Below, one piece after another: positions 1-41,160 of a stretch of 41,160 nt of DNA (its first letter is position 1; every line of letters starts with the position of its first letter). The stretch is from positions 1-41,160 of the IMG/VR virus record IMGVR_UViG_3300028588_000042; one strand, given 5' to 3'. Source of the stretch: a virus (lineage: Duplodnaviria; Caudoviricetes). A program made the position numbers and the translations under genes. A model generated the notes under the pieces. That model was given only the letters and a program-made list of their open reading frames with translations. It was not told the origin of the DNA and ran no database searches.

Positions 1-150
1 TGCTCGAGGGCGGAGTTCACCCCTCCATTGCGGACCTGGTCGGCGTGTTGCGCGAGGTCGGGTTCGAGGCCGATCTCGCAAAGGCGATCGGCGAAGCGGC
101 GAAACCGATCCTCGAACGTGTCGGCGAGCCCGAAACAAAGGGCATGGCGT
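1..150. repeat. Terminal 150-bp direct repeat (copy of 41011-41160); circular contig overlap
   Basis: 1-150 is identical to 41011-41160 except at 14/41024 (A/C) and 139/41149 (A/T); the protease reading frame runs through the join. Confidence 0.97.
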
Positions 151-18326: not shown

Positions 18327-18354
18327 TACATAGGCAATGGGACCGGAGGGTCAA
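18327..18354 (-). promoter_or_regulatory. Leftward sigma70-type promoter TTGACC-N16-TATGTA
   Basis: Same -10 and spacing as the promoter at 27225-27252; GGTCCC in the spacer. Confidence 0.7.
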
Positions 18355-18367
18355 TACACATTCGCGA

Positions 18368-18754
18368 TTAGAGGGCGCTCTCCTCGCCGTTTTCTAGCGG
18401 CTGGCTGAACACGCAAAGGCCATCGCCCGACGCCGGTTCGTACCTGGCGCAAAGGCCCGGCCGCGTTTCCCAACGGGAGCATCGACCGGTGCGCTTGTCG
18501 AGGGCGTTGCAGCGCCACAACCAGGAGGAATAGGTCCGGCCGGCGTCGGGGTCCGGCTGGTCCCCGTCGCCATCGGGGACCGTCCATGTCTGGATACGCT
18601 CGATCGGCTCGAACGTATGGAGATCGGGCGACCATTCGACAATGATCTCGCTCGGGTCGTCGTCGTCCCAAACCGCGAGGACTTGGCCCTCGCGGCTGAG
18701 GTTCATCACCTGGCAACACGCCCCCGGAGCGGGGCAACGATCACAAAGGCTCAT
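18368..18754 (-). CDS. YkgJ/CxxCxxCC-family cysteine-cluster protein
   Basis: CDRCPAPGACC...CNALD..TGRCSRWETRPGLCARY. Confidence 0.85.
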   Translation of the reverse strand: MSLCDRCPAPGACCQVMNLSREGQVLAVWDDDDPSEIIVEWSPDLHTFEPIERIQTWTVPDGDGDQPDPDAGRTYSSWLWRCNALDKRTGRCSRWETRPGLCARYEPASGDGLCVFSQPLENGEESAL

Positions 18755-21985: not shown

Positions 21986-22014
21986 TGTATGGGGCCAGCG
22001 GTCCCAACGCGCAA
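21986..22014 (-). promoter_or_regulatory. Leftward promoter TTGCGC-N17-CATACA
   Basis: Spacer shares 13 bp (TTGGGACCGCTGG) exactly with the 27225-27252 promoter. Confidence 0.65.
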
Positions 22015-22032
22015 GAGGGAACAGGGAAGGGC

Positions 22033-22060
22033 TTGCAAGTGCCGGGCGGGACAGTATGTG
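22033..22060 (+). promoter_or_regulatory. Rightward promoter TTGCAA-N16-TATGTG driving a small RNA
   Basis: Same architecture as the other early promoters; no credible + strand CDS downstream. Confidence 0.65.
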
Positions 22061-22065
22061 TCGGG

Positions 22066-22141
22066 ACGTCGGCTCGCCGGCCGCTCTCTCCGGGGCGCTC
22101 TAGGCCCGTCGCCAGGTTGGAAGCCCGGCGGCGGGCCTTTT
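22066..22141 (+). ncRNA. Putative three-hairpin antisense small RNA
   Basis: Promoter upstream; hairpins 22068-81, 22082-97 (CUCC loop) and 22102-22138 followed by a T-run; two 11-nt segments complementary to the 27198-27218 leader. Confidence 0.7.
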
Positions 22142-22144
22142 CCG

Positions 22145-24939: not shown

Positions 24940-25271
24940 GGTCTATTCCTCCGGTTAGGTTGCTGCTTGCCGCGCAAGTCGGGTTGCCAAAAGGCATAAG
25001 GACCTGGCGCGCGCGGGGGCTTGTGGTCGATCAACGGAAGCCGGTCGCCCTCGTCATGGCCGAGCGCGTCCTCGATCTCGTCTATCCCGACCAAGATATC
25101 GTTGTAGCCTCGAGCCTCGATAATGTCGGCGCGTGGGCCTTTCGCGTACCAACCGGTTTCGACGGCGCAGCTCCCGTTGTGGAGGACGCCGGGCTCGTAC
25201 CACAACCGCCAGCGACGGTGGCGGAGCGCGCCGACCGGAGGGCGGGGCACGGTGGGGTCGTGTGTCACCAT
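24936..25271 (-). CDS. Hypothetical protein
   Basis: Coupled to both neighbours. Confidence 0.6.
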   Translation of the reverse strand: MVTHDPTVPRPPVGALRHRRWRLWYEPGVLHNGSCAVETGWYAKGPRADIIEARGYNDILVGIDEIEDALGHDEGDRLPLIDHKPPRAPGPYAFWQPDLRGKQQPNRRNRP

Positions 25272-25894
25272 GCCGTTGCACCCATTTCCTCGAGCCAATT
25301 CGACCAGCTCGGGTCCGCTAGAACCTCGTGCAATGTGCCGGCTCCGTCGCTGAACATGGCCGCGTCGAGGGCCAGATCGCGTTCGTCACCTGTTCGGAAC
25401 CAGCGCGCAATCTTGCGGAACGGCGGCAGTTCGTGGCGCAGTCTCCAAGTCTTGACGGTCGCGATCGGGCATTCGGCTTCTGCTGCTATCTGGCGATCCG
25501 TCAGCCCTTGCCGGTAGAGGGTGAACCGCTGCTCATGGCGAGCGACGAAACCCGGATGCGTCGTCGCCTTCACGCGACTGTGATGGGGCGGAAGTCCGCA
25601 GCGTCGTCTCCACGCCTTTACGGTCGCGGCTGGCCTCCCCTCCACCTCGGCTATCTGGCGATCCGTCATCCCGGAGCGATACAAAGTCAGTCGGCGGCTC
25701 TGCATGTCGGGGTCCCAATGTCGCGGGTGAGGCTCAAGCCCTCGGCGGCTGCGCCACATCGCAACGGCGTTAGAGCAAACCCCCTCCGCCTTCGCGATAG
25801 CCTTGTCCGACATTCCCGATCGATACAGCTCGAGCCGGCGGCGGGTCTGGTCTGCCGTCAAGCCGCGCGTGTCGATTTCCTTGCGCCGGGTCAC
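25265..25894 (-). CDS. Triple tandem HTH protein with sigma region-3.2-like C-terminus
   Basis: Three LYxxG(M/L)(S/T)DxxIA...(T/A)VxxWRxRxxL units; tail LALDAAMFSDGAGTLHEVLAD. Confidence 0.85.
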   Translation of the reverse strand: MTRRKEIDTRGLTADQTRRRLELYRSGMSDKAIAKAEGVCSNAVAMWRSRRGLEPHPRHWDPDMQSRRLTLYRSGMTDRQIAEVEGRPAATVKAWRRRCGLPPHHSRVKATTHPGFVARHEQRFTLYRQGLTDRQIAAEAECPIATVKTWRLRHELPPFRKIARWFRTGDERDLALDAAMFSDGAGTLHEVLADPSWSNWLEEMGATAW

Positions 25895-26286
25895 TGTTCG
25901 TTTTTCCGCTCGAGGAGATAGGCCGGCGGCGGCATGGCGTAGCCGTACCGCTCCATTTGGCGCTCGTACCGATCGGGCCAGGCGCGGTGGCGCGCGAGCC
26001 TGCGATCGAGCTTGTAAGCCTGGTCGTCGGCCTGGTCTCGCGCTCGCTCGAGGGCGGGATCGATATAGTTCACGCGGCGGGCGATCAGCTCCCGGATCGT
26101 CGCACGGATCGCGGCGGCGGCGCGGTAGAGACGGCCGGCCTCCTGCTCGAGGAACCGGTCGTCCAGCTCGATCGGCGGCGAGCCCTTGCCGGTGCAAGGA
26201 ACGCCCTTGACGTGATGATGCGAGATCGAGCCGTCCGACCTGGTCGCCTTCAAGCGTCCGCATATCTGGCAACGGCCGCGCCTCAC
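25891..26286 (-). CDS. Zn-binding hypothetical protein
   Basis: GRCQICG...HHH...CTG; GTGA overlap. Confidence 0.72.
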   Translation of the reverse strand: MRRGRCQICGRLKATRSDGSISHHHVKGVPCTGKGSPPIELDDRFLEQEAGRLYRAAAAIRATIRELIARRVNYIDPALERARDQADDQAYKLDRRLARHRAWPDRYERQMERYGYAMPPPAYLLERKNEQ

Positions 26287-27224: not shown

Positions 27225-27252
27225 TACATACGCCCAGCGGTCCCAATCGCAA
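27225..27252 (-). promoter_or_regulatory. Main leftward early promoter TTGCGA-N16-TATGTA
   Basis: At the strand switch; shares elements with the 18327 and 21986 promoters. Confidence 0.72.
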
Positions 27253-27303
27253 GGGGGTAAATACCCTCCGGTCCCTTTTATTTCGCGGGACCTTTTCGAC
27301 CCG

Positions 27304-27358: not shown

Positions 27359-27619
27359 ATGAGTGACTTACCCCGCGACCCGCTAGGGTCGCCCCCGACT
27401 GGTATTCTGTATCTCCCGCCTCGGCCACGCCGGCGGCGCACCCTTGCGCGCATCCTGTTCAAACCGCGCCTATCCGCAATCGACATGCTAACCTGGTGGC
27501 CCCTCTCGGCGACCGTAGGCGAGTTGTGGGGGTGGCTTGCCGGCGTGGCGGTGCTGATACCCGTGGCGGCGGCCGTGGTGTGGATTGAGGACATGCTCCT
27601 CGGAAAGGAAAGGGAATGA
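27359..27619 (+). CDS. Small membrane protein
   Basis: CCGGAGG RBS; Arg cluster followed by hydrophobic segments. Confidence 0.7.
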   Translation: MSDLPRDPLGSPPTGILYLPPRPRRRRTLARILFKPRLSAIDMLTWWPLSATVGELWGWLAGVAVLIPVAAAVVWIEDMLLGKERE

Positions 27620-28242
27620 CGATGGGCGGTAATAAAGGCCCGCAAGGCGCGGGCGAGGAGATCAAGCTCCTCGTGGAAAGGGCGATGCGTATCCGAGAGG
27701 AGATCGCGGAGCTGAAAGCGGACGAGCGCGACGTTATCGCAGAGGCGAAGTCGCGGGGGTTCGATCCTAAGCCGATCCGCAAGCTGATCGCGTGGCTCGA
27801 GAAGGACCCCGACAAGCGCCGCGAGGAGGACGCGATCCTCGAGCTTTACAAGTCGGCCATGGGGGTCGGCGACGGCTCCCTCTCCGACGCGGCTCGCGCG
27901 TTCGTGTCGCAGCGCCGCGCCGAGGAGAAGGGCGACGACGACCAGCTCGACGCGTTCAACCCGCCTCGCGAGCCCGGCAAGTCCGACCCCTCGACCGATT
28001 TCGGCGACGACCTGTCCGACAAGCCGGTAACGGAGGAGGACGCGCGCAAGCTCGGGGCCGAGGCGCAAAAGGCCGGCCGCCCGGTGACTGCCAACCCGTT
28101 CAAGGCCGGTGACGAGCGTCGCCAGGCTTGGGACGAGGCGTGGTGCGGGTCGGCCGGCTCGGACGGGATGGATATCCCGCCGGAGCTGCGCCCCAAGGCC
28201 AAGCCGAAAAAAGACGATGAACCGAAAGGCGGTGACGAGTGA
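27616..28242 (+). CDS. GapR/DUF2312-family DNA-binding protein with an Rmf-like C-terminal motif
   Basis: IKLLVERAMRIREE...DVIAEAKSRGFDPKPIRKLI...EEDAILELYKSAMG; tail GAEAQKAG...NPF...RQAWDEAW. Confidence 0.85.
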   Translation: MTMGGNKGPQGAGEEIKLLVERAMRIREEIAELKADERDVIAEAKSRGFDPKPIRKLIAWLEKDPDKRREEDAILELYKSAMGVGDGSLSDAARAFVSQRRAEEKGDDDQLDAFNPPREPGKSDPSTDFGDDLSDKPVTEEDARKLGAEAQKAGRPVTANPFKAGDERRQAWDEAWCGSAGSDGMDIPPELRPKAKPKKDDEPKGGDE

Positions 28243-29225
28243 CGAACCCGGAGAATAGCGGCCCGGCGGCCGGCGACGACGCCCCCAAGTTACCCAAGAC
28301 GGCGGAGGACCTGGAAAAGGATCGGCTGGCGGAGGAGAAGGCGGAACGGACCAGCCTCGCCCACAAGTTCGGCGGGTTCGGTTATGTCTCGATGCCGTCC
28401 GACGCAAAGCCCCCGATCCTCGATATCCCGACCCGTCGCGCGCTGTCCGAATGGATGGCCGAAATGGGGGCAAAGAAGCAGCTCCGCGCCGTAGGGGTCG
28501 AGCCCCGCTCGCGGGTGTTGCTCGACGGTCCTCCCGGCTGCGGCAAGACGACGCTCGCGCATCACGTCGCGGCGCGGATGGGCCTCCCTATGGTGACGAT
28601 CGTCGCTAACGCAGTGATCTCGAAATACGTCGGTGAAAGCGCGACCAACGTCGGCAAGATATTTCGAGCTGCGCGCCAAGCCTCGAACGGTGTCGTCCTG
28701 TTCTTTGACGAGTTCGACGCCATTGCTCGCGACCGGGCAAAGACGACCCAGGGCAACGGACACGACGACGGCGTGACGATCTCCGTCCTCGCCGAGCTGG
28801 ATCGGCACGAGGGAATGGTATTCGGTGCCACCAACCAGCCGGAGGGGATCGACCCGGCCGTCCAGCGGCGCTTCAACCTCAAGATTGAGATTGGCCTCCC
28901 CGGCGAGGATGAGCGTCGCGCAATCGTAAAGCTCTACATGCAACCGCTCGAGATCGAGGACCATATCGTCAACGTGATCGCGGCGGCGCTCGAGGGAGCC
29001 TCGCCTGCGCTAATCAAAGACGTCTGCGAAGCGATCAAGCGCGGGCTGGTCCTGGCTCCCAAGCTGGGCTTTGCGACCGAGCTGGGTTCCCTGGTCCGGC
29101 GCGCGACGACGACGATCAAGCCTCACGAGGACATGGTCGTTCCGAAGCTGTGGGGCGGTGTCGCCGCCTGGGTCGATAAGCTCGACATCGCGGCCGAGGG
29201 ACATTGGCCTCCCAAGCTCCCCTAG
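28239..29225 (+). CDS. Classical-clade AAA+ ATPase (single module)
   Basis: Walker A GPPGCGKT, pore loop SKYVGES, Walker B FFDEFD, SRH ATNQPEGIDPAVQRRF. Confidence 0.93.
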   Translation: MTNPENSGPAAGDDAPKLPKTAEDLEKDRLAEEKAERTSLAHKFGGFGYVSMPSDAKPPILDIPTRRALSEWMAEMGAKKQLRAVGVEPRSRVLLDGPPGCGKTTLAHHVAARMGLPMVTIVANAVISKYVGESATNVGKIFRAARQASNGVVLFFDEFDAIARDRAKTTQGNGHDDGVTISVLAELDRHEGMVFGATNQPEGIDPAVQRRFNLKIEIGLPGEDERRAIVKLYMQPLEIEDHIVNVIAAALEGASPALIKDVCEAIKRGLVLAPKLGFATELGSLVRRATTTIKPHEDMVVPKLWGGVAAWVDKLDIAAEGHWPPKLP

Positions 29226-29325: not shown

Positions 29326-29985
29326 ATGCGGACGATCCTAAAGACAACGATCAAAGGCCAACCCGTGCAATGGGCTCGCGCCCGTGTCGGCGGCGGCGGC
29401 GAAGGTGGAAGGGCGCGACAGGTGTCGTTCCATACCGCCCCCGAGCAATCCCGATTTAAGCGGCTCGTCCAGGACGAGGGCCGTTTAGCGATGCTCACCG
29501 CGAAGGCGCGGCGGGTTCACGATGGCAAGCCGGTGGGGCTAGGAACGCCCGTTATATTCGAGGCGCTCGTTTACCTCCCGATCCCGTCGAGCTTCACCAG
29601 GGCGGAGGAGCTGGCGGCGCGGGAGGGTAAGCTCCGCCCTACTGGCAAGCCTGATCTCGATAACTGGATCAAACTCCCGATGGATGCGCTCGAGGGCATC
29701 GCTTACGCGAACGATAGCCAGGTCGTCGGGTTCGGGCAGTCGGGCGTCTGGTATGCGGAACGGCCGCGCCTCGAGCTTCACGTATTCCACGCGCCGGCTG
29801 GCCTGCCGTTCGACCGTGAGACGCTGTCCAACCATCTACGCAACCTGTCGTCGCTTATTCGAGCGTGGTCGCTCTCGGACGGGATCGGCGGCAGCACGAT
29901 CAGCGGCGAGGACTTTATCGACATGATCCGTCACTCGATCGGGTTCGAGCTGCCGGTTCGTGAGGAGGAAAACGAGGATGACTAA
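29326..29985 (+). CDS. rusA: RusA-family Holliday junction resolvase with C-terminal extension
   Basis: KPDLDNWIKLPMDALEGIAYANDSQV signature. Confidence 0.92.
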   Translation: MRTILKTTIKGQPVQWARARVGGGGEGGRARQVSFHTAPEQSRFKRLVQDEGRLAMLTAKARRVHDGKPVGLGTPVIFEALVYLPIPSSFTRAEELAAREGKLRPTGKPDLDNWIKLPMDALEGIAYANDSQVVGFGQSGVWYAERPRLELHVFHAPAGLPFDRETLSNHLRNLSSLIRAWSLSDGIGGSTISGEDFIDMIRHSIGFELPVREEENEDD

Positions 29986-30247
29986 AGCAACCCAAGGGCC
30001 GGCGGCCGCGCCGGATGCGAGCCCCGCTCCGCGCAAGGGCCGGCATGTGTTTATCGTCAACGCCGGTCGGGACATGCTCGAGTCCGAGATCGAGGCGGAC
30101 GAGTTCGAGGTCGATAGCAACGGGGCCTATTTTAGCCGCGACGTCGATAAGCCGACCGAACACGTCTGCGCGTTCGTCTCGCATCCCTGTTATGTCCGCT
30201 TGGACGACGACGGAGAAGCGGCGGCGCTCCGGGATGGCGGCAAGTGA
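29978..30247 (+). CDS. Hypothetical protein
   Basis: GAGGAGG RBS; coupled to neighbours. Confidence 0.7.
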   Translation: MTKATQGPAAAPDASPAPRKGRHVFIVNAGRDMLESEIEADEFEVDSNGAYFSRDVDKPTEHVCAFVSHPCYVRLDDDGEAAALRDGGK

Positions 30248-34506: not shown

Positions 34507-34677
34507 ATGCTAACTGACGACGAAAACAAGGTTTTGGCGATCCTCGCGGATGCTTGGAACGCGTTCCTCGCCCTGCCGGCTCAACACTCGGACGACCTGG
34601 TCGAGTTCCGTCAAACCCTCCACCGGTTGCAGGAGAAGGTTCTCGCTCGGCCGGCGCTCCGGGAGTTTGGAAAGTGA
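34507..34677 (+). CDS. Small helical phage protein
   Basis: GGAGGAG RBS; LADAWNAFLALPAQHSDDLVEFRQTLHRLQEKVLARP. Confidence 0.75.
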   Translation: MLTDDENKVLAILADAWNAFLALPAQHSDDLVEFRQTLHRLQEKVLARPALREFGK

Positions 34678-36194
34678 CCGGCCGCAAGCCCCGCGCCTCC
34701 GAGCTGGCCGACCAGGCGAACCCGGCGCGCGAGAAGCCGGCCGAGGAGGCGAAGCGGATCGCGCGCGAGACGATGAACACGGCGGACACGCTCGACGCTG
34801 CCGGATGGCCGACGTCGCGGCCCCGCATGCGCCTGGTCGCGGACTTGGTCCCTTACGCGAAAAACGCGCGGACCCATTCGGAGGACCAGGTCGCGCAAAT
34901 CGTCGCCTCGATCCGCGAGTTCGGTTGGACGGCTCCGGTCCTAACGCGCTCCGAGGACAGCTCGATTATAGCCGGGCATGGCCGCATCCTGGCGGCGCAA
35001 AAGCTCGGCCTGGTCGAGGTCCCGACGTTGGAAGCCGAGGGATGGTCGGACGCCCAGGTCCGAGCCTACGTGATCGCCGATAACAAGCTCGCGGAAAATG
35101 CCGGGTGGGATATGAGGCTCCTCGCGGCCGAGCTGCGCGACCTGGCGGAGATGGGGTTTGACCTGGACCTAACCGGGTTCACGGCCGATGAAATTGCGGA
35201 CATGGACCCGGACCGCAAGCCCGGTTTGACGGACCCGGACGACGCTCCCGACGTCCAGGAGAAGCACGTCGCCAAGCGCGGGGACGTGTGGCTCCTCGGC
35301 CCGCATCGCGTCGGCTGCGGCGACAGCACCAACCCGGACGACCTGGCGCGCGTGATGGCCGAGGGTAAGGCGGACGGCGTGTGGACCGATCCGCCTTACA
35401 ACATCAGCTATTCGGGCGGCGCTCGCCGGACCGAGGAGGACAAGGCGAAATCGCGGATCGCGAACGACAGCCTCCCGGCCGAGGAGTTCGAGGAGTTCCT
35501 CGCGGACGCGCTCCTCGCGACGTTCGGTTCGATGAAGCCGGGCGCGCCGATCTACGTCGCGCATGCCCATACCGAGGGGGCGGCGTTCATGCGGGCGTTC
35601 GCGACTGCCGGCTTTAAGCTCTCGTCTGCGCTGATATGGGCTAAGGACGTCCTCCTCCTCGGCCGCGCCGACTATCAATGGCAACATGAGCCTATCCTCT
35701 ACGGGTGGAAGCCTGGCGCGGCTCACAAGTGGTTTGGCGGCCGAAAGCAGACGACGGTTCTCGACCTGGCGGCCGGATCGGTGTTCGCGATGAACGAGGA
35801 CGGTTCGCTTACCGTCCGGGTGGGCCAGGAGTCCCTAATAGTTCGGGGGACCGAATTCACGGCCGAGGCGGTGGAGCCGACCGTCATTCGCGGCATCCCC
35901 AAGCCGAAAAAGAGCGAGGGGCATCCGACGATGAAACCGGTCGCGCTGATCGAGCGCATGCTCCGCAACTCGACCAGGCAAGGCGACGTGATCCTCGACC
36001 CGTTCGGGGGTTCGGGTTCGACGCTGATCGCCTGCGAAATGATGGAGCGGGTCGCCCGGCTGAACGAGCTAGAGCCCAGGTTCGTGGACGTGATCGTCAA
36101 GCGTTGGCAGGATTATACCGGCCGCGTCGCGACCCTTGACGGCGACGGCCGGACGTTCGCGCAGATCGAGCAAGGCGGGCGCAGTGCTGCATAG
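34674..36194 (+). CDS. ParB/Srx N-domain plus N4-C/N6-A DNA methyltransferase (beta class)
   Basis: PYAKNARTH...IIAGHGR...IADNKL; TDPPY; HPTMKP; DPFGGSGST. Confidence 0.95.
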   Translation: MTGRKPRASELADQANPAREKPAEEAKRIARETMNTADTLDAAGWPTSRPRMRLVADLVPYAKNARTHSEDQVAQIVASIREFGWTAPVLTRSEDSSIIAGHGRILAAQKLGLVEVPTLEAEGWSDAQVRAYVIADNKLAENAGWDMRLLAAELRDLAEMGFDLDLTGFTADEIADMDPDRKPGLTDPDDAPDVQEKHVAKRGDVWLLGPHRVGCGDSTNPDDLARVMAEGKADGVWTDPPYNISYSGGARRTEEDKAKSRIANDSLPAEEFEEFLADALLATFGSMKPGAPIYVAHAHTEGAAFMRAFATAGFKLSSALIWAKDVLLLGRADYQWQHEPILYGWKPGAAHKWFGGRKQTTVLDLAAGSVFAMNEDGSLTVRVGQESLIVRGTEFTAEAVEPTVIRGIPKPKKSEGHPTMKPVALIERMLRNSTRQGDVILDPFGGSGSTLIACEMMERVARLNELEPRFVDVIVKRWQDYTGRVATLDGDGRTFAQIEQGGRSAA

Positions 36195-36860: not shown

Positions 36861-38742
36861 TCGGACGACGTCCTACGCGAAAGACGTTTGCGCCGGCTCG
36901 ATCGTCGCGGGTCCGCATGTTCGGAACGCGTGTCGTCGTCACCTGGACGACCTGAAAAAGGGGAAGGGTCGGGGGCTCCGGTGGAACCTCGATCTCGCCG
37001 AGCATAAAATTCAAATGTTCGAGGACGTGTTTCGGCTCTCGGAGGGCCAATTCGACGGCCTCGCGATGAAGCTCGAGCCGGCGCAGTGCTTTATCGTCGG
37101 CTCGGTTTTCGGCTGGCAGTCCGAGCGCCGCGTCCCTGGCGCTTGGGTCCGGCGCTTCCGACGCGCGTTCGTGGAAATGGGGAAGGGCAACGGCAAGTCG
37201 CCGCTCGCGGGCGGGATCGCGCTCAACCTGTTATCGATGGAGGGGGAGGCCGGGGCCGAGATATATTCGGCGGCCGCGAAAAAGGATCAGGCGGCGATCC
37301 TATTCCGGGACGCGGTCAAGATGGTGCGCCAATCGCCCGCGCTGAAAAAGCGGATCGCGATCTCCGGAACGGTCGGCAAAGAATACAACCTCGCCCATCA
37401 TTCCTCCGGCTCGTTTTTCCGGCCGGCCTCGCGCGAGACGGGTAAGACGGGGTCGGGCTTGCGGCCGTTCGGCATCCTCGCCGACGAAATTCACGAGATG
37501 GCGGACCGGCGTATCCTCGACATGCTCGAGCGCGGGTTCAAGTTCCGACGCGAGCCGCTCCTGTTCATGATTACTAACTCGGGCTCCGATCCCAATTCGG
37601 TCGCCGGGCAGGAACACGATCACGCGATCCGCGTCGCGGCGGGCTCCCCGGACCCGGTCGGGCCGGACGGGACTTACGTCGGCGATCCGATAGACGACGA
37701 CACGTTCTCCTATGTCTGCGCGCTCGACAAAGACGACGATCCGCTCCGCGATCCGTCATGCTGGATCAAGGCGAACCCGCTCCTCGGCATCACTGTTACC
37801 GAGGAATATCTCGCCGGCCTGGTCCGCGACGCGGCGAATATCCCCTCGACCCGAAACGAAATCCTCCGCCTGCATTTCTGCATGTGGACCGAGGCGTCCG
37901 TCGCCTGGCTGACACGCGACATTGTCGATCCGTGCCTCTCCGATTTCGACCCCGGCGAACACGCGGGGGAGCCGATCGTCAACGGGCTCGACCTTTCGCA
38001 GCGGCGCGATCTCACCGTTAAAGCATGTTGCGTGAAAACCGGCTTTGTCGAGGTCCCGGTTCGTCGGTGGGGCGACAACGGGGGTCCGCCTCTGGACGAG
38101 GAGGGGGACGAGCTGCCGGCCGTCGTGATGGTGAAAAAACCGACGTTCGACGTTTGGGTAGAGGCATGGACCCCCGGCGACACGATCAAGGCGCGCTCGA
38201 TCGCCGACAAGCTGCCTTACGACCTGTGGGCGGAGGACGGGTGGCTATATGCCCCGCCGGGGCAGATCGTGGATTATCTCCACGTAGCGCAGTCCCTCGC
38301 CGAGGACGCGGACGAGTTCGATCTCCGCCTCGTGGCATACGATCGCTACGCGTTCCGTTCGCTCGAGACGTTTGTCGATCAAGTCGGCATCTCGATCGAG
38401 TTCGTCGAGCATCCGCAGGGCGGTGTAAAAAAGGGCAAAGTTACCGAGGAGATGAAGCGCGTCGCTCGCCAGGCCAACCCGCCGCGCGAGGCGGAGGGGC
38501 TATGGATGCCGGGGTCTGTCATGGCGTTCGAGGAGGCGCTCCTCGAGCGGCGCATCCGACTTCGCCGCAATCCTGTTCTGATCTCGGCGCTGCTCTCGGC
38601 CGCAACCGAAACTGACAAGTGGGGTAACCGGTGGCTTACGAAGGTCCGCTCGGTTAATAAGATCGATGCGGCGGTCGCCGTGTGCATGGCCTTAGGCGCG
38701 GCGGTCGCGCTGCTTGGCGACGTGGAGGGCGGGCTAGGATGA
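36817..38742 (+). CDS. terL: Terminase large subunit (HK97/3'-cos type)
   Basis: RRFRRAFVEMGKGNGKS Walker A, ADEIHE Walker B, WIKANP, GLDLS, KIDAAVA. Confidence 0.96.
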   Translation: MPAKKTTQRRSISRDRTTSYAKDVCAGSIVAGPHVRNACRRHLDDLKKGKGRGLRWNLDLAEHKIQMFEDVFRLSEGQFDGLAMKLEPAQCFIVGSVFGWQSERRVPGAWVRRFRRAFVEMGKGNGKSPLAGGIALNLLSMEGEAGAEIYSAAAKKDQAAILFRDAVKMVRQSPALKKRIAISGTVGKEYNLAHHSSGSFFRPASRETGKTGSGLRPFGILADEIHEMADRRILDMLERGFKFRREPLLFMITNSGSDPNSVAGQEHDHAIRVAAGSPDPVGPDGTYVGDPIDDDTFSYVCALDKDDDPLRDPSCWIKANPLLGITVTEEYLAGLVRDAANIPSTRNEILRLHFCMWTEASVAWLTRDIVDPCLSDFDPGEHAGEPIVNGLDLSQRRDLTVKACCVKTGFVEVPVRRWGDNGGPPLDEEGDELPAVVMVKKPTFDVWVEAWTPGDTIKARSIADKLPYDLWAEDGWLYAPPGQIVDYLHVAQSLAEDADEFDLRLVAYDRYAFRSLETFVDQVGISIEFVEHPQGGVKKGKVTEEMKRVARQANPPREAEGLWMPGSVMAFEEALLERRIRLRRNPVLISALLSAATETDKWGNRWLTKVRSVNKIDAAVAVCMALGAAVALLGDVEGGLG

Positions 38743-40067
38743 AGCGAAAAAACGCTGTGGACGTGTTGAACCCGCTGGCGATCGATAGTCGCCGGGGGAC
38801 GGACATCGTCACCCCGATCAGCTCCAAGGCGGAGCCGAATTGGTTCGAGAAGGCGCTCTCGTTCGTCGTCACGCGCCTGTCGCTGGTGAACCGGGAGGGG
38901 TGGCCTACTGATGACAGTCACGCCGGGGAGAGTGTCACGCCGGGGACCGTCCTCGGCCTGTCAACCGCCTGGGCTTGCGTGAACCTGATCGCGGGCGTTC
39001 TCGGGACGCTGCCGCTCGAGGTGTGGCGCAACAATCCCCGGACGGGCTTTCCCGAGCAGGCTCGCGACCATTGGCTCTCCCGCCTGATAGCGCAGCCGAA
39101 CCTCGAACAGACTAAGATTGACGTCCTCGAATTCATGGCGACGTCGCTCGAGCTGCGCGGGAACGCCTACGTCCGCAAAGGCCGGCTAGCGGCCGGGGGT
39201 TCGATCGTCTCCCTTACGCCTTACGATCCGGACGACGTTTACGTCTCGCGCAACTGGCAGACGGGCGTGATCGAGTACCGGGTCCGCGATTGGCGCGGCC
39301 GGGTGGACACGTTCACGGCCGACGACATTTGGCACGTCCGAGGGTTTGGCGGATCGCCCCTCGGAGGCGTGTCTACGCTGGCGGCCGGTCGCCAGGTGTT
39401 CGGCCTCGCCCAGGCGCTCGACAAGGCGGCCGCGACGACGTTTAAAAACGGGGTCCGCCCGTCCGGCATCCTGTCCTATCAGGATTGGCTTACGGACACG
39501 CGCAAGGCGGACGCGCGTCGCGACGTCGAGAAGCTGCAGGGCGCGGCGCAATCCGGAAAGCCGATGATCTTGGAGGGCGGCGTCCAGTGGCATCAAATTT
39601 CCTTCTCGCCGGAAGAAGCCCAAATGCTCGCCTCGCGCGGGTTCTCGGTGGAGGAGGTCTGTCGCCTGTTCGGGACCCCGCCTGTCCTGGTCGGCCATAC
39701 CGAGAAGGTGTCGAGCTGGGGGACCGGCATCCAGGAGATTACGCTCGGGTGGGTCAAGTATGGGCTCCGACGCCGGTTCAAGCGGATCGAGGAAAGCGGG
39801 AACATGCAAGTTCTCACCCCGGCCGATCGCGCGGCCGGGTATTACCTCCGCTACAATATCGAGGCCCTCCTCCGCGCAGATAGCAAGGGGCGTTCGGCGT
39901 TCTACGAAGTGATGACGCGGGCGGGGATTATGACCATCAACGAATGTCGCCGGCTCGAGGGGTTGCCCCCTGTCCCCGGTGGCGACGTCCCCCGGATGCA
40001 GGCGCAAAACGTCCCGATCGGCGCGGCGCTGCAAGCGGTCCCGGTCCCATCCGGCGAGGGGGACTAG
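38739..40067 (+). CDS. Portal protein, HK97 family
   Basis: AWACVNLIA, LRGNAY, GVRPSGIL, ILEGG, VCRLFGTPP, GIMTINECR. Confidence 0.96.
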   Translation: MKRKNAVDVLNPLAIDSRRGTDIVTPISSKAEPNWFEKALSFVVTRLSLVNREGWPTDDSHAGESVTPGTVLGLSTAWACVNLIAGVLGTLPLEVWRNNPRTGFPEQARDHWLSRLIAQPNLEQTKIDVLEFMATSLELRGNAYVRKGRLAAGGSIVSLTPYDPDDVYVSRNWQTGVIEYRVRDWRGRVDTFTADDIWHVRGFGGSPLGGVSTLAAGRQVFGLAQALDKAAATTFKNGVRPSGILSYQDWLTDTRKADARRDVEKLQGAAQSGKPMILEGGVQWHQISFSPEEAQMLASRGFSVEEVCRLFGTPPVLVGHTEKVSSWGTGIQEITLGWVKYGLRRRFKRIEESGNMQVLTPADRAAGYYLRYNIEALLRADSKGRSAFYEVMTRAGIMTINECRRLEGLPPVPGGDVPRMQAQNVPIGAALQAVPVPSGEGD

Positions 40068-40426
40068 GGGGCTTGCAATCGACCGGCCGCCATGGGACAG
40101 GGCGATTGTCTAGGACGGCGCGCGACCGGGTCAACAGCTCCCTTGGGGGTGGTGTCCTGCTCGGTTTGTAAGGACTTCGGGGGCGTGATTAAGTCGCCTA
40201 GCTCCCCCGGCCGAGTGAAGCGGTTACATTGTCCGATGGGCGCAGGGGACACACTTCACAGCGTCAAGTCGAGAGAGGGCAAGTCGGCCGGCCGGCGGCG
40301 ATAAGTCCCTCTCTCGGCGATCCCGGTTTTAGGAATAGCGGGCCTGGGAAGCCCGAGGGCGCAGATTAAATCCGTGGTCCTGGGTAAAGGCGGCTGGTTC
40401 GGTCCGGTGCGGTGCGAAAACCCCTA
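40065..40426 (+). ncRNA. Large structured RNA candidate between portal and protease
   Basis: Nested long-range helices 40081-91/40389-99, 40110-16/40377-83 and 40124-30/40322-28; 12-bp stem 40268-79/40307-18; multi-segment arm 40152-40252. Confidence 0.65.
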
Positions 40427-40431
40427 CTGAT

Positions 40432-40461
40432 AGCGGCCCCGCTGGAAACGGCGGGGCCGTT
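40432..40461 (+). terminator. 13-bp GC hairpin with GAAA tetraloop (terminator or processing/stability stem)
   Basis: AGCGGCCCCGCTG-GAAA-CGGCGGGGCCGTT; U-tract is weak. Confidence 0.6.
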
Positions 40462-40496
40462 CGCGTATGTCCGTCTCGATCAGCGGAGGCGATGCG

Positions 40497-41160
40497 ATGA
40501 CGATCCACCAAAAAGACGCGGAGTTCCACGGGCGGCGGCTCGAGGTCCCATTCCATTTCAAGGCCGAGGACGTGACGCCGGAGGGGCGGTTCAAGGGCTA
40601 CGCGTCCGTATTTAACGTGGTGGATCAGGGCGGCGACGCGGTCCAGCCTGGCGCGTTTATCGAGGGCCTGGTCGAGGCGAAGTCCGCCGGCCGGCTAATT
40701 CCGATGCTCTGGCAGCACGATCGGACCGAGCCGCTCGGGACCTGGGTCGATCTCGCCGAGGATACCAAGGGCCTCTATGCGGAGGGGCAGCTCGTTCTCG
40801 AGGACAATCCGGTCGCCAAGCGGGCGCTGTCGCTTCTCCGGAATAAGGCGCTCGGCGGCATGTCGATCGGCTATCGCATCCCGGCGGCCGGCGCGGAGGA
40901 GGACCCCAAGCGGCGCGGCGTCTACCTCCTGAAAAAGGTGACGCTGGTCGAGGTGTCCCTCGTCACCATGCCGATGTTGATCCAGGCGCGGGTCCAATCG
41001 GTCAAGTCGCTGCTCGAGGGCGGCGTTCACCCCTCCATTGCGGACCTGGTCGGCGTGTTGCGCGAGGTCGGGTTCGAGGCCGATCTCGCAAAGGCGATCG
41101 GCGAAGCGGCGAAACCGATCCTCGAACGTGTCGGCGAGCCCGAAACAATGGGCATGGCGT
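40497..41160 (+). CDS. HK97-family prohead maturation protease (wraps to 206; 239 aa), absent from the ORF track
   Basis: GGAGG RBS; FKGYASVFNVVDQGGD...MLWQHD...GMSIGY...LVEVSLVTMP. Confidence 0.95.
   Translation, partial: MTIHQKDAEFHGRRLEVPFHFKAEDVTPEGRFKGYASVFNVVDQGGDAVQPGAFIEGLVEAKSAGRLIPMLWQHDRTEPLGTWVDLAEDTKGLYAEGQLVLEDNPVAKRALSLLRNKALGGMSIGYRIPAAGAEEDPKRRGVYLLKKVTLVEVSLVTMPMLIQARVQSVKSLLEGGVHPSIADLVGVLREVGFEADLAKAIGEAAKPILERVGEPETMGMA

What the first reader, a model, noticed from the sequence alone, without database searches (positions are those of the whole stretch)
40065..40461. About 360-nt ornate RNA structure inserted between portal and protease genes
Established: in HK97-type head operons these genes usually abut or overlap. 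Seen: a 429-bp gap with no credible ORF, whose ends pair starting at the portal stop codon (UAGGGG 40065-70/CCCCUA 40421-26; 11-bp 40081-91/40389-99). Inside are nested helices 40110-16/40377-83 and 40124-30/40322-28, and a long segmented arm (40152-60/40242-52, 40161-64/40233-36, 40167-71/40224-28, 40179-84/40201-06). There is also a 12-bp stem 40268-79/40307-18, a hairpin at 40339-55 and a twice-used GAUUAARUC loop (40187, 40364). Many G-U pairs favour RNA over DNA structure on the + strand. A GAAA-capped hairpin follows, and a GGTCCC-N11-GGGACT site precedes it. I cannot match it to a known class. Inference: a novel ncRNA excised from late mRNA (packaging/assembly RNA, ribozyme or protein sponge), or a cis element setting the portal:capsid ratio.
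Basis: partly seen in the sequence, partly recalled or inferred. Interest (0 to 1): 0.85.

Follow-up and report, generated by a model that had tools for sequence, protein, structure and literature searches.

The report
Folded RNA insert after phage portal
The gap after this phage's portal gene is a swappable cargo slot with no credible protein gene, whose two ends pair and whose one strong hairpin is kept by matched changes in related DNA, so it likely holds an uncatalogued accessory folded RNA, although the elaborate inner fold first proposed is no better than chance.

Summary
The 429-bp portal-protease gap is real, and its ORFs lack coding signal. All ten proposed helices are complementary, but 'ornate' is not supported. 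The 362-nt insert folds no better than shuffles (z -1.1), has no excess of stems, and the long inner arm is improbable.

Three things exceed chance: the end-to-end duplex (6 of 5000 shuffles), the 12-bp stem 40268-40318, and the GAAA hairpin. A short contig from another run keeps the 40200-40318 core at about 90% identity, with two compensatory changes in that stem. A third phage keeps only a remnant of the stem.

The two closest full relatives carry protein genes in this slot instead, so the insert is accessory, not a required packaging RNA. The GGTCCC-N11-GGGAC site is one of ten genome-wide copies. The GAAA hairpin belongs to the protease leader. There is no Rfam match, no full-length homologue and no expression data.

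Best reading (0.35): an accessory non-coding RNA cut from late mRNA. Rivals: a cis mRNA element (0.30) or a decayed promoter cassette (0.22).

The parts
38739..40067 (+). HK97-type portal gene; its UAG stop is the first 3 nt of the 5' arm of the terminal duplex
   Evidence: phrog_12 E 3e-102; translation
40044..40064 (.). GTCCC-N11-GGGAC palindrome, one of 10 exact copies round the genome; likely a phage protein-binding site; not specific to the insert
   Evidence: exact at the portal end of G002, 2 mismatches in G001
40042..40130 (+). Stretch resembling the phage's own intergenic promoter region 21999-22085 (palindrome, TTGCAA, GGGACAG) but lacking that promoter's TATGTG -10 box
   Evidence: local alignment score 59 against shuffle mean 28, 0 of 1000 shuffles
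40065..40091 (+). 5' arm of the terminal duplex (27 nt)
   Evidence: duplex -39.9 kcal/mol; 6 of 5000 shuffles, 42 of 16318 genome windows as good
40107..40134 (-). Predicted sigma-70-type promoter TTGACC-N16-TAGACA pointing antisense into the portal gene
   Evidence: the only promoter-like hit of the scan in 39900-40600, read there as TTGACC-18-GACAAT; one of 8 genome-wide matches to a TTG-N16/17-TA pattern
40187..40195 (+). GAUUAAGUC, predicted GAU-UAA-RUC triloop hairpin tip, copy 1
   Evidence: pattern defined after the fact; folds
40200..40318 (+). Conserved core of the insert
   Evidence: run X2 contig: 75 of 81 letters alike over 40231-40311; its loose end matches 40200-40230 at 25 of 30 letters with one gap, compared by eye
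40268..40318 (+). 12-bp stem with inner hairpin, the only inner element that is both stable and supported by comparison
   Evidence: pair probability 0.99, z -4.9; A40272-U40314 and A40274-U40312 read G-C, and G40271-C40315 reads G-U, in X2; X3 carries the same arm letters
40364..40372 (+). GAUUAAAUC, copy 2; a shorter variant GAUAAGUC lies at 40300
40389..40426 (+). 3' arm of the terminal duplex (bulged)
40432..40461 (+). 13-bp GAAA hairpin; part of the ancestral protease leader, outside the insert
   Evidence: z -5.0; kept in L007 with 2 two-sided changes and 2 broken pairs of 13; kept in X3
40444..40469 (+). GGAAAC-N16-TATG; possible promoter for the protease-capsid genes
   Evidence: unique in the window and at the same place in G002, absent from G001
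40497..41160 (+). HK97-type prohead protease gene (runs on across the circular junction), with GGAGG at 40485-40489
   Evidence: phrog_80 E 3e-47; start agrees with 15 close homologues; 150-nt terminal repeat

Best explanation
The portal-protease gap of this phage clade is an exchangeable cargo slot, and in this phage the cargo has no credible protein gene, pairs end to end and keeps a covarying stem, so it is likely an accessory folded RNA that would be made by read-through of the late head mRNA, likely cut out at its closing duplex by host nucleases, and likely act in trans as a protein-binding decoy. Shown: the slot, its different contents in relatives, the lack of coding signal, the end complementarity, and the two-sided changes in the 40268-40318 stem. 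Inferred: transcription by read-through (no plus-strand promoter with a -10 box was found, and any promoter inside the gap would leave out the 5' arm); excision (from general knowledge of RNase III substrates; this duplex is bulged and marginal); and the decoy role (from dispensability, conserved single-stranded letters and the repeated GAU(U)AARUC motif). My odds by step: RNA structure is under selection, about 0.65; a discrete 120-360-nt RNA accumulates, about 0.35; it acts as a decoy, about 0.15. The inner fold is unresolved. The core may be as small as 40200-40318.
For: (1) Of 112 distinct portal-protease loci fetched, 105 have gaps of 120 bp or less, and all 7 larger gaps hold an ATG ORF of 128 aa or more; this gap is large and has none. 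(2) The closest relatives fill the slot differently. G001 (85-90% aa identity) has 674 bp with a reverse DUF305 gene. G002 (73%) has 2447 bp with several ORFs. X3 has 39 letters in place of 357. (3) With boundaries set by the stop codon and the conserved hairpin, the end duplex is matched by 6 of 5000 whole shuffles, 2 of 5000 end-only shuffles and 42 of 16318 genome windows. (4) X2 keeps 40231-40311 at 75 of 81 letters, while its portal piece is only 151 of 173 alike, and the same contig stops matching just after the stem. (5) The stem shows two compensatory changes and one G-C to G-U change in X2, and a second study (X3) has the same arm letters. (6) The three substitutions seen in 40200-40226 (C40204U, C40205U, A40218G) would turn predicted pairs into G-U; this is weak support, since transitions are common.
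Against: Whole-insert folding and stem counts are at chance level. The homologue evidence is one 275-nt contig of depth 2.8 and one 266-nt contig of depth 4.3. Only 2 of the 6 differences in the laid piece and 30 letters of each loose end were shown, and no contig joins X2's core to X2's portal end. X2's first 30 letters after the portal stop differ from ours after 7 nt, and its 3' end was not seen, so the terminal duplex has no comparative support. The 30-nt and 50-nt end sizes were chosen after seeing the fold, and the same first 30 nt pair more strongly with some unrelated places in the genome (-45 kcal/mol at 29981-30001). With flanks 40000-40520 the outer 6-bp stem is displaced by pairing with the portal end. 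The first 90 nt look like a promoter copy and hold a predicted antisense promoter. Quasi-palindrome correction in DNA can also give two-sided changes (own knowledge).
Confidence: 0.35

Rival explanations
1. A cis-acting mRNA element. The folded spacer ends, pauses or protects the terminase-portal message and shields an untranslated stretch from Rho and RNase E. It thereby uncouples the 12-copy portal from the protease-capsid genes, which use the GAAA-hairpin leader and possibly their own promoter. No free RNA acts in trans.
For: Each relative seen has a hairpin soon after the portal stop: G001 an 11-bp hairpin followed by GTTTT, G002 two hairpins, X3 a GNRA-capped remnant of the 12-bp stem (read by eye). 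The GAAA hairpin and GGAAAC-N16-TATG are kept in G002. The plus strand is 37% G and 27% C, unlike a Rho site.
Against: A 39-letter spacer suffices in X3, so 360 nt is not needed. Predicted unpaired letters of the core are conserved in X2. No intrinsic terminator lies on the plus strand. G001 lacks both the insert and the GAAA hairpin.
Confidence: 0.3
2. A decayed or rearranged DNA control cassette: a copy of the phage's operator-promoter unit plus an antisense promoter that damps portal expression, left after loss of a cargo gene. The stems are DNA inverted repeats or chance.
For: 40042-40130 aligns to the promoter region 21999-22085 (0 of 1000 shuffles). TTGACC-N16-TAGACA lies on the minus strand. 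Global folding is at chance level as RNA and as DNA. X3 looks like a slippage deletion between short repeated words (by eye).
Against: It does not explain the conserved 120-nt core lying away from the promoter-like part, the G-U-preserving changes, or the end-to-end complementarity. No gene remnant was detected.
Confidence: 0.22
3. A miniature inverted-repeat transposable element inserted at the TA of the portal stop codon.
For: Imperfect terminal inverted repeats, TAGGGG and CCCCTA, with a possible TA duplication (sequence).
Against: Single copy in the genome. No match among phage or plasmid records. X3 has the left 12 letters without the right end, and the left end resembles a native promoter region. 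In X2 the middle is conserved and the left end is not.
Confidence: 0.06
4. A required packaging or assembly RNA (like phi29 pRNA), or a self-cleaving or self-splicing ribozyme.
For: Position inside the head operon, and paired ends.
Against: Replaced or deleted in 3 of 4 close relatives with data. No Rfam ribozyme or intron hit at E up to 10. No hammerhead, group I P7 or RNase P core motif (motifs recalled). Single-stranded stretches are few, and no pseudoknot pairing of 4 bp or more was found between them.
Confidence: 0.04
5. A small protein gene (70-aa ORF 40092-40304 with a CxxC motif, or another frame).
For: An ATG start and a CSVC motif.
Against: Codon score -0.17 and no ribosome-binding site. 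No homologue among 5.8 billion proteins of 38-123 residues and no Pfam hit. X2 is one letter shorter inside the ORF, and its two listed changes alter one codon non-synonymously.
Confidence: 0.03

Closest known systems
Phage morons (HK97 gene 15 type; Cumby et al. 2012, PMC3594210, passages read)
   Same: An addition between conserved, ordered morphogenesis genes that is absent or different in relatives. The same slot holds protein genes in G001 and G002.
   Different: No protein gene. G+C is 63.6% against 65.5% in the portal gene. No complete plus-strand promoter and no terminator were found.
ROOL (RF03087) and GOLLD (RF02032) large phage RNAs (Kretsch et al. 2025, PMC12286853, passages read; accession numbers)
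   Same: Phage-borne, non-coding, predicted structured, function unknown.
   Different: No Rfam match. Shorter than GOLLD (many members exceed 800 nt). No tRNA genes in this genome. No evidence of an ornate, pseudoknotted fold.
cabRNA of staphylococcal phage Phi80alpha-vir (Banh et al. 2023, PMC10686824, abstract and section 6 read)
   Same: A structured RNA of about 400 nt from the head-packaging region that binds a host protein.
   Different: cabRNA lies inside the terS-terL coding sequence and triggers CBASS. This element is intergenic and accessory, and no partner is known.
FinP antisense RNA (RF00107)
   Same: Best plus-strand Rfam look-alike of the 12-bp stem (16.2 bits, E 1.6).
   Different: Far below the gathering score of 45. 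Its first stem-loop is not matched. No traJ context. Treated as chance.
phi29 pRNA
   Different: pRNA is essential and kept across its phage group. This insert is replaced or deleted in close relatives, and the phage has a TerS/TerL motor.
Mycobacteriophage L5 stoperators (PMC9283540, passages read); this concerns the flanking GTCCC-N11-GGGAC site
   Same: Many copies of one site spread over a phage genome, some in promoter regions.
   Different: Stoperators are asymmetric 13-mers oriented with transcription. This site is a palindrome with an 11-bp free spacer, and some copies lie inside genes. Its binding protein is unknown.

Membership tests
Phage moron | Insertion between conserved genes, absent or different in relatives | tested here: met
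Phage moron | [quoted passage not shown] | tested here: not met
   63.6% against 65.5% (portal) and 65.7% (protease)
Phage moron | Own promoter and terminator | tested here: inconclusive
   A -35-like TTGCAA without a -10 box on the plus strand; the only full promoter-like site points out of the gap; no plus-strand intrinsic terminator
ROOL / GOLLD / OLE | Match to the Rfam covariance model | tested here: not met
   no hit at E up to 10; none at gathering score in the whole window
ROOL / GOLLD / OLE | Often near tRNA islands (ROOL, GOLLD) | tested here: not met
   ARAGORN finds 0 genes
ROOL / GOLLD / OLE | Extensive multi-helix fold supported by covariation | tested here: inconclusive
   only one stem has comparative support; no alignment of full-length homologues could be built
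tmRNA / tRNA-like / Y RNA | tRNA-like acceptor stem, T-loop and CCA end | tested here: not met
   ARAGORN none; no TTCRA or T-loop on either strand; Rfam none
Group I / group II intron, small ribozymes, RNase P RNA | Catalytic-core motifs and Rfam model match | tested here: not met
   (motifs recalled). The GAAA hairpin resembles group II domain V in size and AGC start but has no bulge, and L007 loses the AGC
Group I / group II intron, small ribozymes, RNase P RNA | Self-cleavage or splicing in vitro | not testable with these tools
   needs an assay
pRNA-type packaging RNA | Kept in all close relatives because it is essential (recalled) | tested here: not met
   replaced in G001 and G002, reduced to 39 letters in X3
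cabRNA | Transcribed from within terS-terL | tested here: not met
   the element lies between portal and protease
cabRNA | Binds and activates a CBASS cyclase | not testable with these tools
   needs an assay
MITE | Terminal inverted repeats with target-site duplication | tested here: inconclusive
   imperfect end complementarity; a TA duplication is possible, but X3 has the left end without the right
MITE | Several copies at unrelated sites | tested here: not met
   one copy in G000; none in phage or plasmid records; host genome unknown
FinP | Rfam gathering score of 45 bits | tested here: not met
   16.2 bits, E 1.6

The most novel reading that the evidence does not exclude
A new family of phage RNA genes that occupy a protein-cargo slot of the head operon. 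The RNA is cut from the late mRNA at a closing duplex that begins at the portal stop codon and works in trans, for example as a decoy for a host defence or RNA-binding protein. It would be an RNA-only moron that is gained, swapped and collapsed to a hairpin among alphaproteobacterial HK97-like phages.
Probability: 0.3. Interest if true: 0.7.

Novelty: new variant of a known kind. Interest (0 to 1): 0.42.

Why it matters
Accessory slots in phage structural operons are known to carry proteins that change host range, immunity or defence. A slot that alternates between protein genes, a folded non-coding stretch and a bare hairpin would show that RNA can be such cargo. It offers a natural series (full, remnant, replaced) for testing what large phage RNAs of unknown function do. 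The case is also a caution: in 64% G+C sequence a full set of complementary helices can be drawn by eye at chance level, and only comparison separated the supported stem from the rest. The genome-wide palindrome found on the way may be the more testable lead.

Tried and rejected
Searches for full-length homologues of the insert found none.
- blastn against 50,697 phage records: only short chance hits at E 2-5, none for the core. Against 72,556 plasmid records: none.
- Pattern scans of IMG/VR. The twin GATTAARTC pattern gave 119 loci from 17 of 64 parts of the collection, none with further similarity by nhmmer. Three core patterns gave 9, 13 and 2 loci, all unrelated contexts.
- One core pattern and the portal protein in 185,579 species genomes: 0.
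A portal C-terminus pattern gave 3 loci, one new, with abutting genes.
- These scans need exact words and some were partial, so absence is not shown. The contigs of 16 close proteases (69-89% identity) could not be fetched.
- No RNA holder was listed for the stretch; this is no evidence on expression. X2 and X3 each held 0.04 of the words and were laid before use.

Rejected readings.
- Homology between this gap and the 5' part of the G001 gap (347 of 1000 shuffles as good).
- Excess internal repeats.
- tmRNA, suggested by the GGGGGC start.
- Group II domain V for the GAAA hairpin.
- FinP.
- The plus-strand argument from G-U pairs.
- The alignment to the G002 gap scored 3 of 1000 but includes the shared palindrome and portal end, so it was not counted.

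Literature. Searches (listings only) showed no report of an RNA in a portal-protease gap. One search showed no report of the palindrome. The library lacks most subscription papers. In PMC10690425 (passages read), 3 of 6 held supplement files were searched. Files 1, 2 and 4 and mmc1-3 were not searched, so a match to one of its 29-151-nt candidate RNAs is not excluded; it lists candidates upstream of HK97 proteases. PMC11445458 passages were irrelevant.
Full report
Context. The window is a whole IMG/VR virus record. A 150-nt terminal repeat shows that it closes into a circle, with the capsid gene following the protease across the junction. It is an HK97-type tailed phage: terminase small and large subunits, portal (38739-40067), protease (from 40497), capsid and tape measure. 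A GapR-like gene, a 75% protease match labelled Hyphomicrobiaceae and a best cultured portal match of 51% to an Agrobacterium phage point to an alphaproteobacterial host; this is inference.

Observation. The gap is 429 bp. Eight short ORFs overlapping the insert score -0.16 to -0.33 on a codon model, against -0.03 to +0.28 for 13 held-out phage ORFs. The 70-aa ORF has no homologue, and 5 gap ORFs have no Pfam hit. Complementarity is cheap at 64% G+C, however. The 362-nt insert folds at z -1.11 (26 of 200 shuffles as good), and its reverse complement at z -1.15. Stem counts equal those of shuffles, and the MFE has fewer long helices than the shuffle mean (5 against 7.1; 111 of 120 shuffles have as many). 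In the ensemble, only the terminal helices (0.88, 0.81) and the 12-bp stem (0.99) are well populated. The 40124 helix is at 0.55, the 40179 helix at 0.35, and the rest at 0.04 or less. Forcing the whole drawing costs 16 kcal/mol, and the segmented arm has P about 1e-6. Nearest-neighbour models miss tertiary contacts, so this does not disprove the arm, but nothing supports it either.

What exceeds chance. First, end pairing: 25 of the first 30 nt pair with the last 45 in the MFE, reached by 0 of 150 shuffles. With boundaries fixed by the stop codon and the conserved hairpin, the duplex is -39.9 kcal/mol, matched by 6 of 5000 whole shuffles, 2 of 5000 end-only shuffles and 42 of 16318 genome windows. 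Caveats: the end sizes were chosen after the fold was seen, the same 30 nt pair more strongly with a few unrelated places, and with flanks 40000-40520 the outer 6 bp are displaced. Second, the stem 40268-40318 (z -4.9, 0 of 200). Third, the GAAA hairpin 40432-40461 (z -5.0).

Relatives. Of 112 distinct portal-protease loci fetched, 105 have gaps of 120 bp or less, measured to the start of the tblastn match. In the close clade the gap is a cargo slot. G001 (85% portal, 90% protease identity) has 674 bp with a reverse DUF305 gene. G002 (73%) has 2447 bp with several ORFs. Neither aligns to the insert by blastn, and G002 keeps the GAAA hairpin. Laying three public runs gave two more relatives. 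X1 holds the whole stretch unchanged and may be the source of the window. In X2 a 275-nt contig matches 40231-40311 with 6 differences, of which the tool lists two, A40272G and A40274G. Its downstream loose end reads U40312C, U40314C and C40315U, so two A-U pairs become G-C and one G-C becomes G-U. After the stem the contig no longer matches. Its upstream loose end matches 40200-40230 at 25 of 30 letters with one gap; the other 118 upstream letters were not shown. A second X2 contig of similar depth (2.7 against 2.8) holds the portal end (22 differences in 173) and departs 7 nt after the start of the stop codon. The spacing would fit one phage with a full-size insert, but no contig joins the two. 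In X3 one contig runs from the portal end through 40076, then 39 letters, then the GAAA hairpin. By eye those 39 letters are the two arms of the 12-bp stem, with the same letters as X2, closed by a GNRA loop. Depths are below 5, but two studies agree on the changed arm letters. So the element is present in this phage, probably in X2, reduced in X3 and replaced in G001 and G002.

The flanks are not part of it. GTCCC-N11-GGGAC occurs 10 times exactly and 15 times with up to one mismatch (shuffle mean 3.5, maximum 9 of 100). Spacing 11 is seen 10 times and any other spacing from 0 to 40 at most once. G001 has 5 exact copies, G002 has 2, and three more distant records have 0. Of 12 window sites inside aligned blocks, 6 are kept in G001 with at most one mismatch; the portal-end site has two mismatches there. 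The GAAA hairpin is kept in L007 with 2 two-sided changes and 2 broken pairs of 13; with two sequences this is not significant alone (109 of 500 shuffles). GGAAAC-N16-TATG, overlapping the hairpin, is unique to this place in the window and in G002 and may be a promoter for the protease-capsid genes (inference).

Promoter-like content. Positions 40042-40130 align to the intergenic region 21999-22085 (score 59, 0 of 1000 shuffles). That region holds a near-site followed by TTGCAA-N16-TATGTG, conserved in G001. The gap has the site and TTGCAA but no such -10 box. On the minus strand TTGACC-N16-TAGACA at 40134-40107 would fire antisense into the portal gene. It is one of 8 genome-wide matches to the pattern, so chance is not excluded.

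Mechanism. I commit to an accessory RNA (0.35). It would be transcribed by read-through of the late head operon, closed by the terminal duplex, likely cut out by host nucleases, and likely act as a protein-binding decoy. Shown: the slot, the lack of coding signal, end complementarity and covariation in one stem. Inferred: transcription, excision and function. A cis element that uncouples portal from protease-capsid expression is nearly as likely (0.30), because every relative keeps some hairpin after the portal stop. A decayed promoter cassette with incidental stems stays open (0.22). A MITE (0.06), a required packaging RNA or ribozyme (0.04) and a small protein (0.03) are unlikely, for the reasons listed under rivals.

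Comparison with what is known. Rfam 15 gives no family at gathering score in the whole window. In the gap, at E up to 10, only FinP (16.2 bits, threshold 45) and a frameshift element (16.6 bits, threshold 34) appear. ARAGORN finds nothing. It works like a moron slot (PMC3594210, passages) but fails the G+C test and has no clear promoter and terminator, so I do not file it as a moron. It is not ROOL or GOLLD (PMC12286853, passages) and not cabRNA (PMC10686824, abstract and section 6). The palindrome is spread like L5 stoperators but is symmetric (PMC9283540, passages). Paper searches (listings) showed no description of this element or site; unread supplements of PMC10690425 may bear on novelty. 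Earlier notes of this scan describe structured RNAs in head-operon gaps of other phages. They share no sequence words with this stretch and are unchecked leads, not support.

Verdict. A real non-coding insert with a supported closing duplex and one covarying stem, in an exchangeable slot. The ornate fold and any role in packaging are unsupported. New variant of a known kind; interest 0.42.

Noticed in passing
window 1675, 5586, 15573, 18560, 24250, 27271, 31009, 34157, 35831, 40044 (exact); 9152, 11655, 17363, 22001, 38053 (one mismatch): Palindrome GTCCC-N11-GGGAC spread round the whole phage genome, in promoter regions, at gene ends and inside genes. Strict 11-bp spacing; 5 exact copies in G001 and 2 in G002. 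Likely a phage protein-binding site (repressor, stoperator-like or partition-like); binder unknown; not found in one paper search.
   Followed up: partly
window 22033-22143 (+): Promoter-like TTGCAA-N16-TATGTG followed by about 75 nt ending in a 12-bp hairpin and a T run, opposite to the leftward genes. The promoter is conserved in G001. Candidate small RNA gene.
   Followed up: partly
window 18354 (-) and 27252 (-): Two more promoter-like sites with the TATGTA -10 box and GGGAC or GTCCC half-sites in the spacer. 18336-18369 and 27245-27278 are inverted copies of each other. The 18354 site is conserved in G001.
   Followed up: partly
window 1-150 and 41011-41160: 150-nt terminal direct repeat: the record is a complete circle of about 41,010 bp although it is classed linear and 55% complete.
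   Followed up: yes
window 27616-28242, 28239-29225, 34554-36194, 25265-26272: GapR-like DNA-binding protein next to an AAA ATPase; a ParB-methyltransferase fusion before the small terminase; a protein with several HTH-like hits. None of the 51 ORF translations scanned against PHROGs was named integrase; not all 198 ORFs were scanned.
   Followed up: partly
L006 3325-3360: In the closest relative an 11-bp hairpin followed by GTTTT lies directly after the portal stop, terminator-like, facing the reverse DUF305 gene.
   Followed up: no
L007 1554-3935: The slot in G002 holds several forward ORFs (longest ATG ORF 448 aa), not annotated here.
   Followed up: no
run X1, 46,772-nt contig laid on window 40434-40468: A copy of the GAAA hairpin (3 differences in 35) in unrelated flanks on another long contig, so the hairpin may be a more general element.
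   Followed up: no
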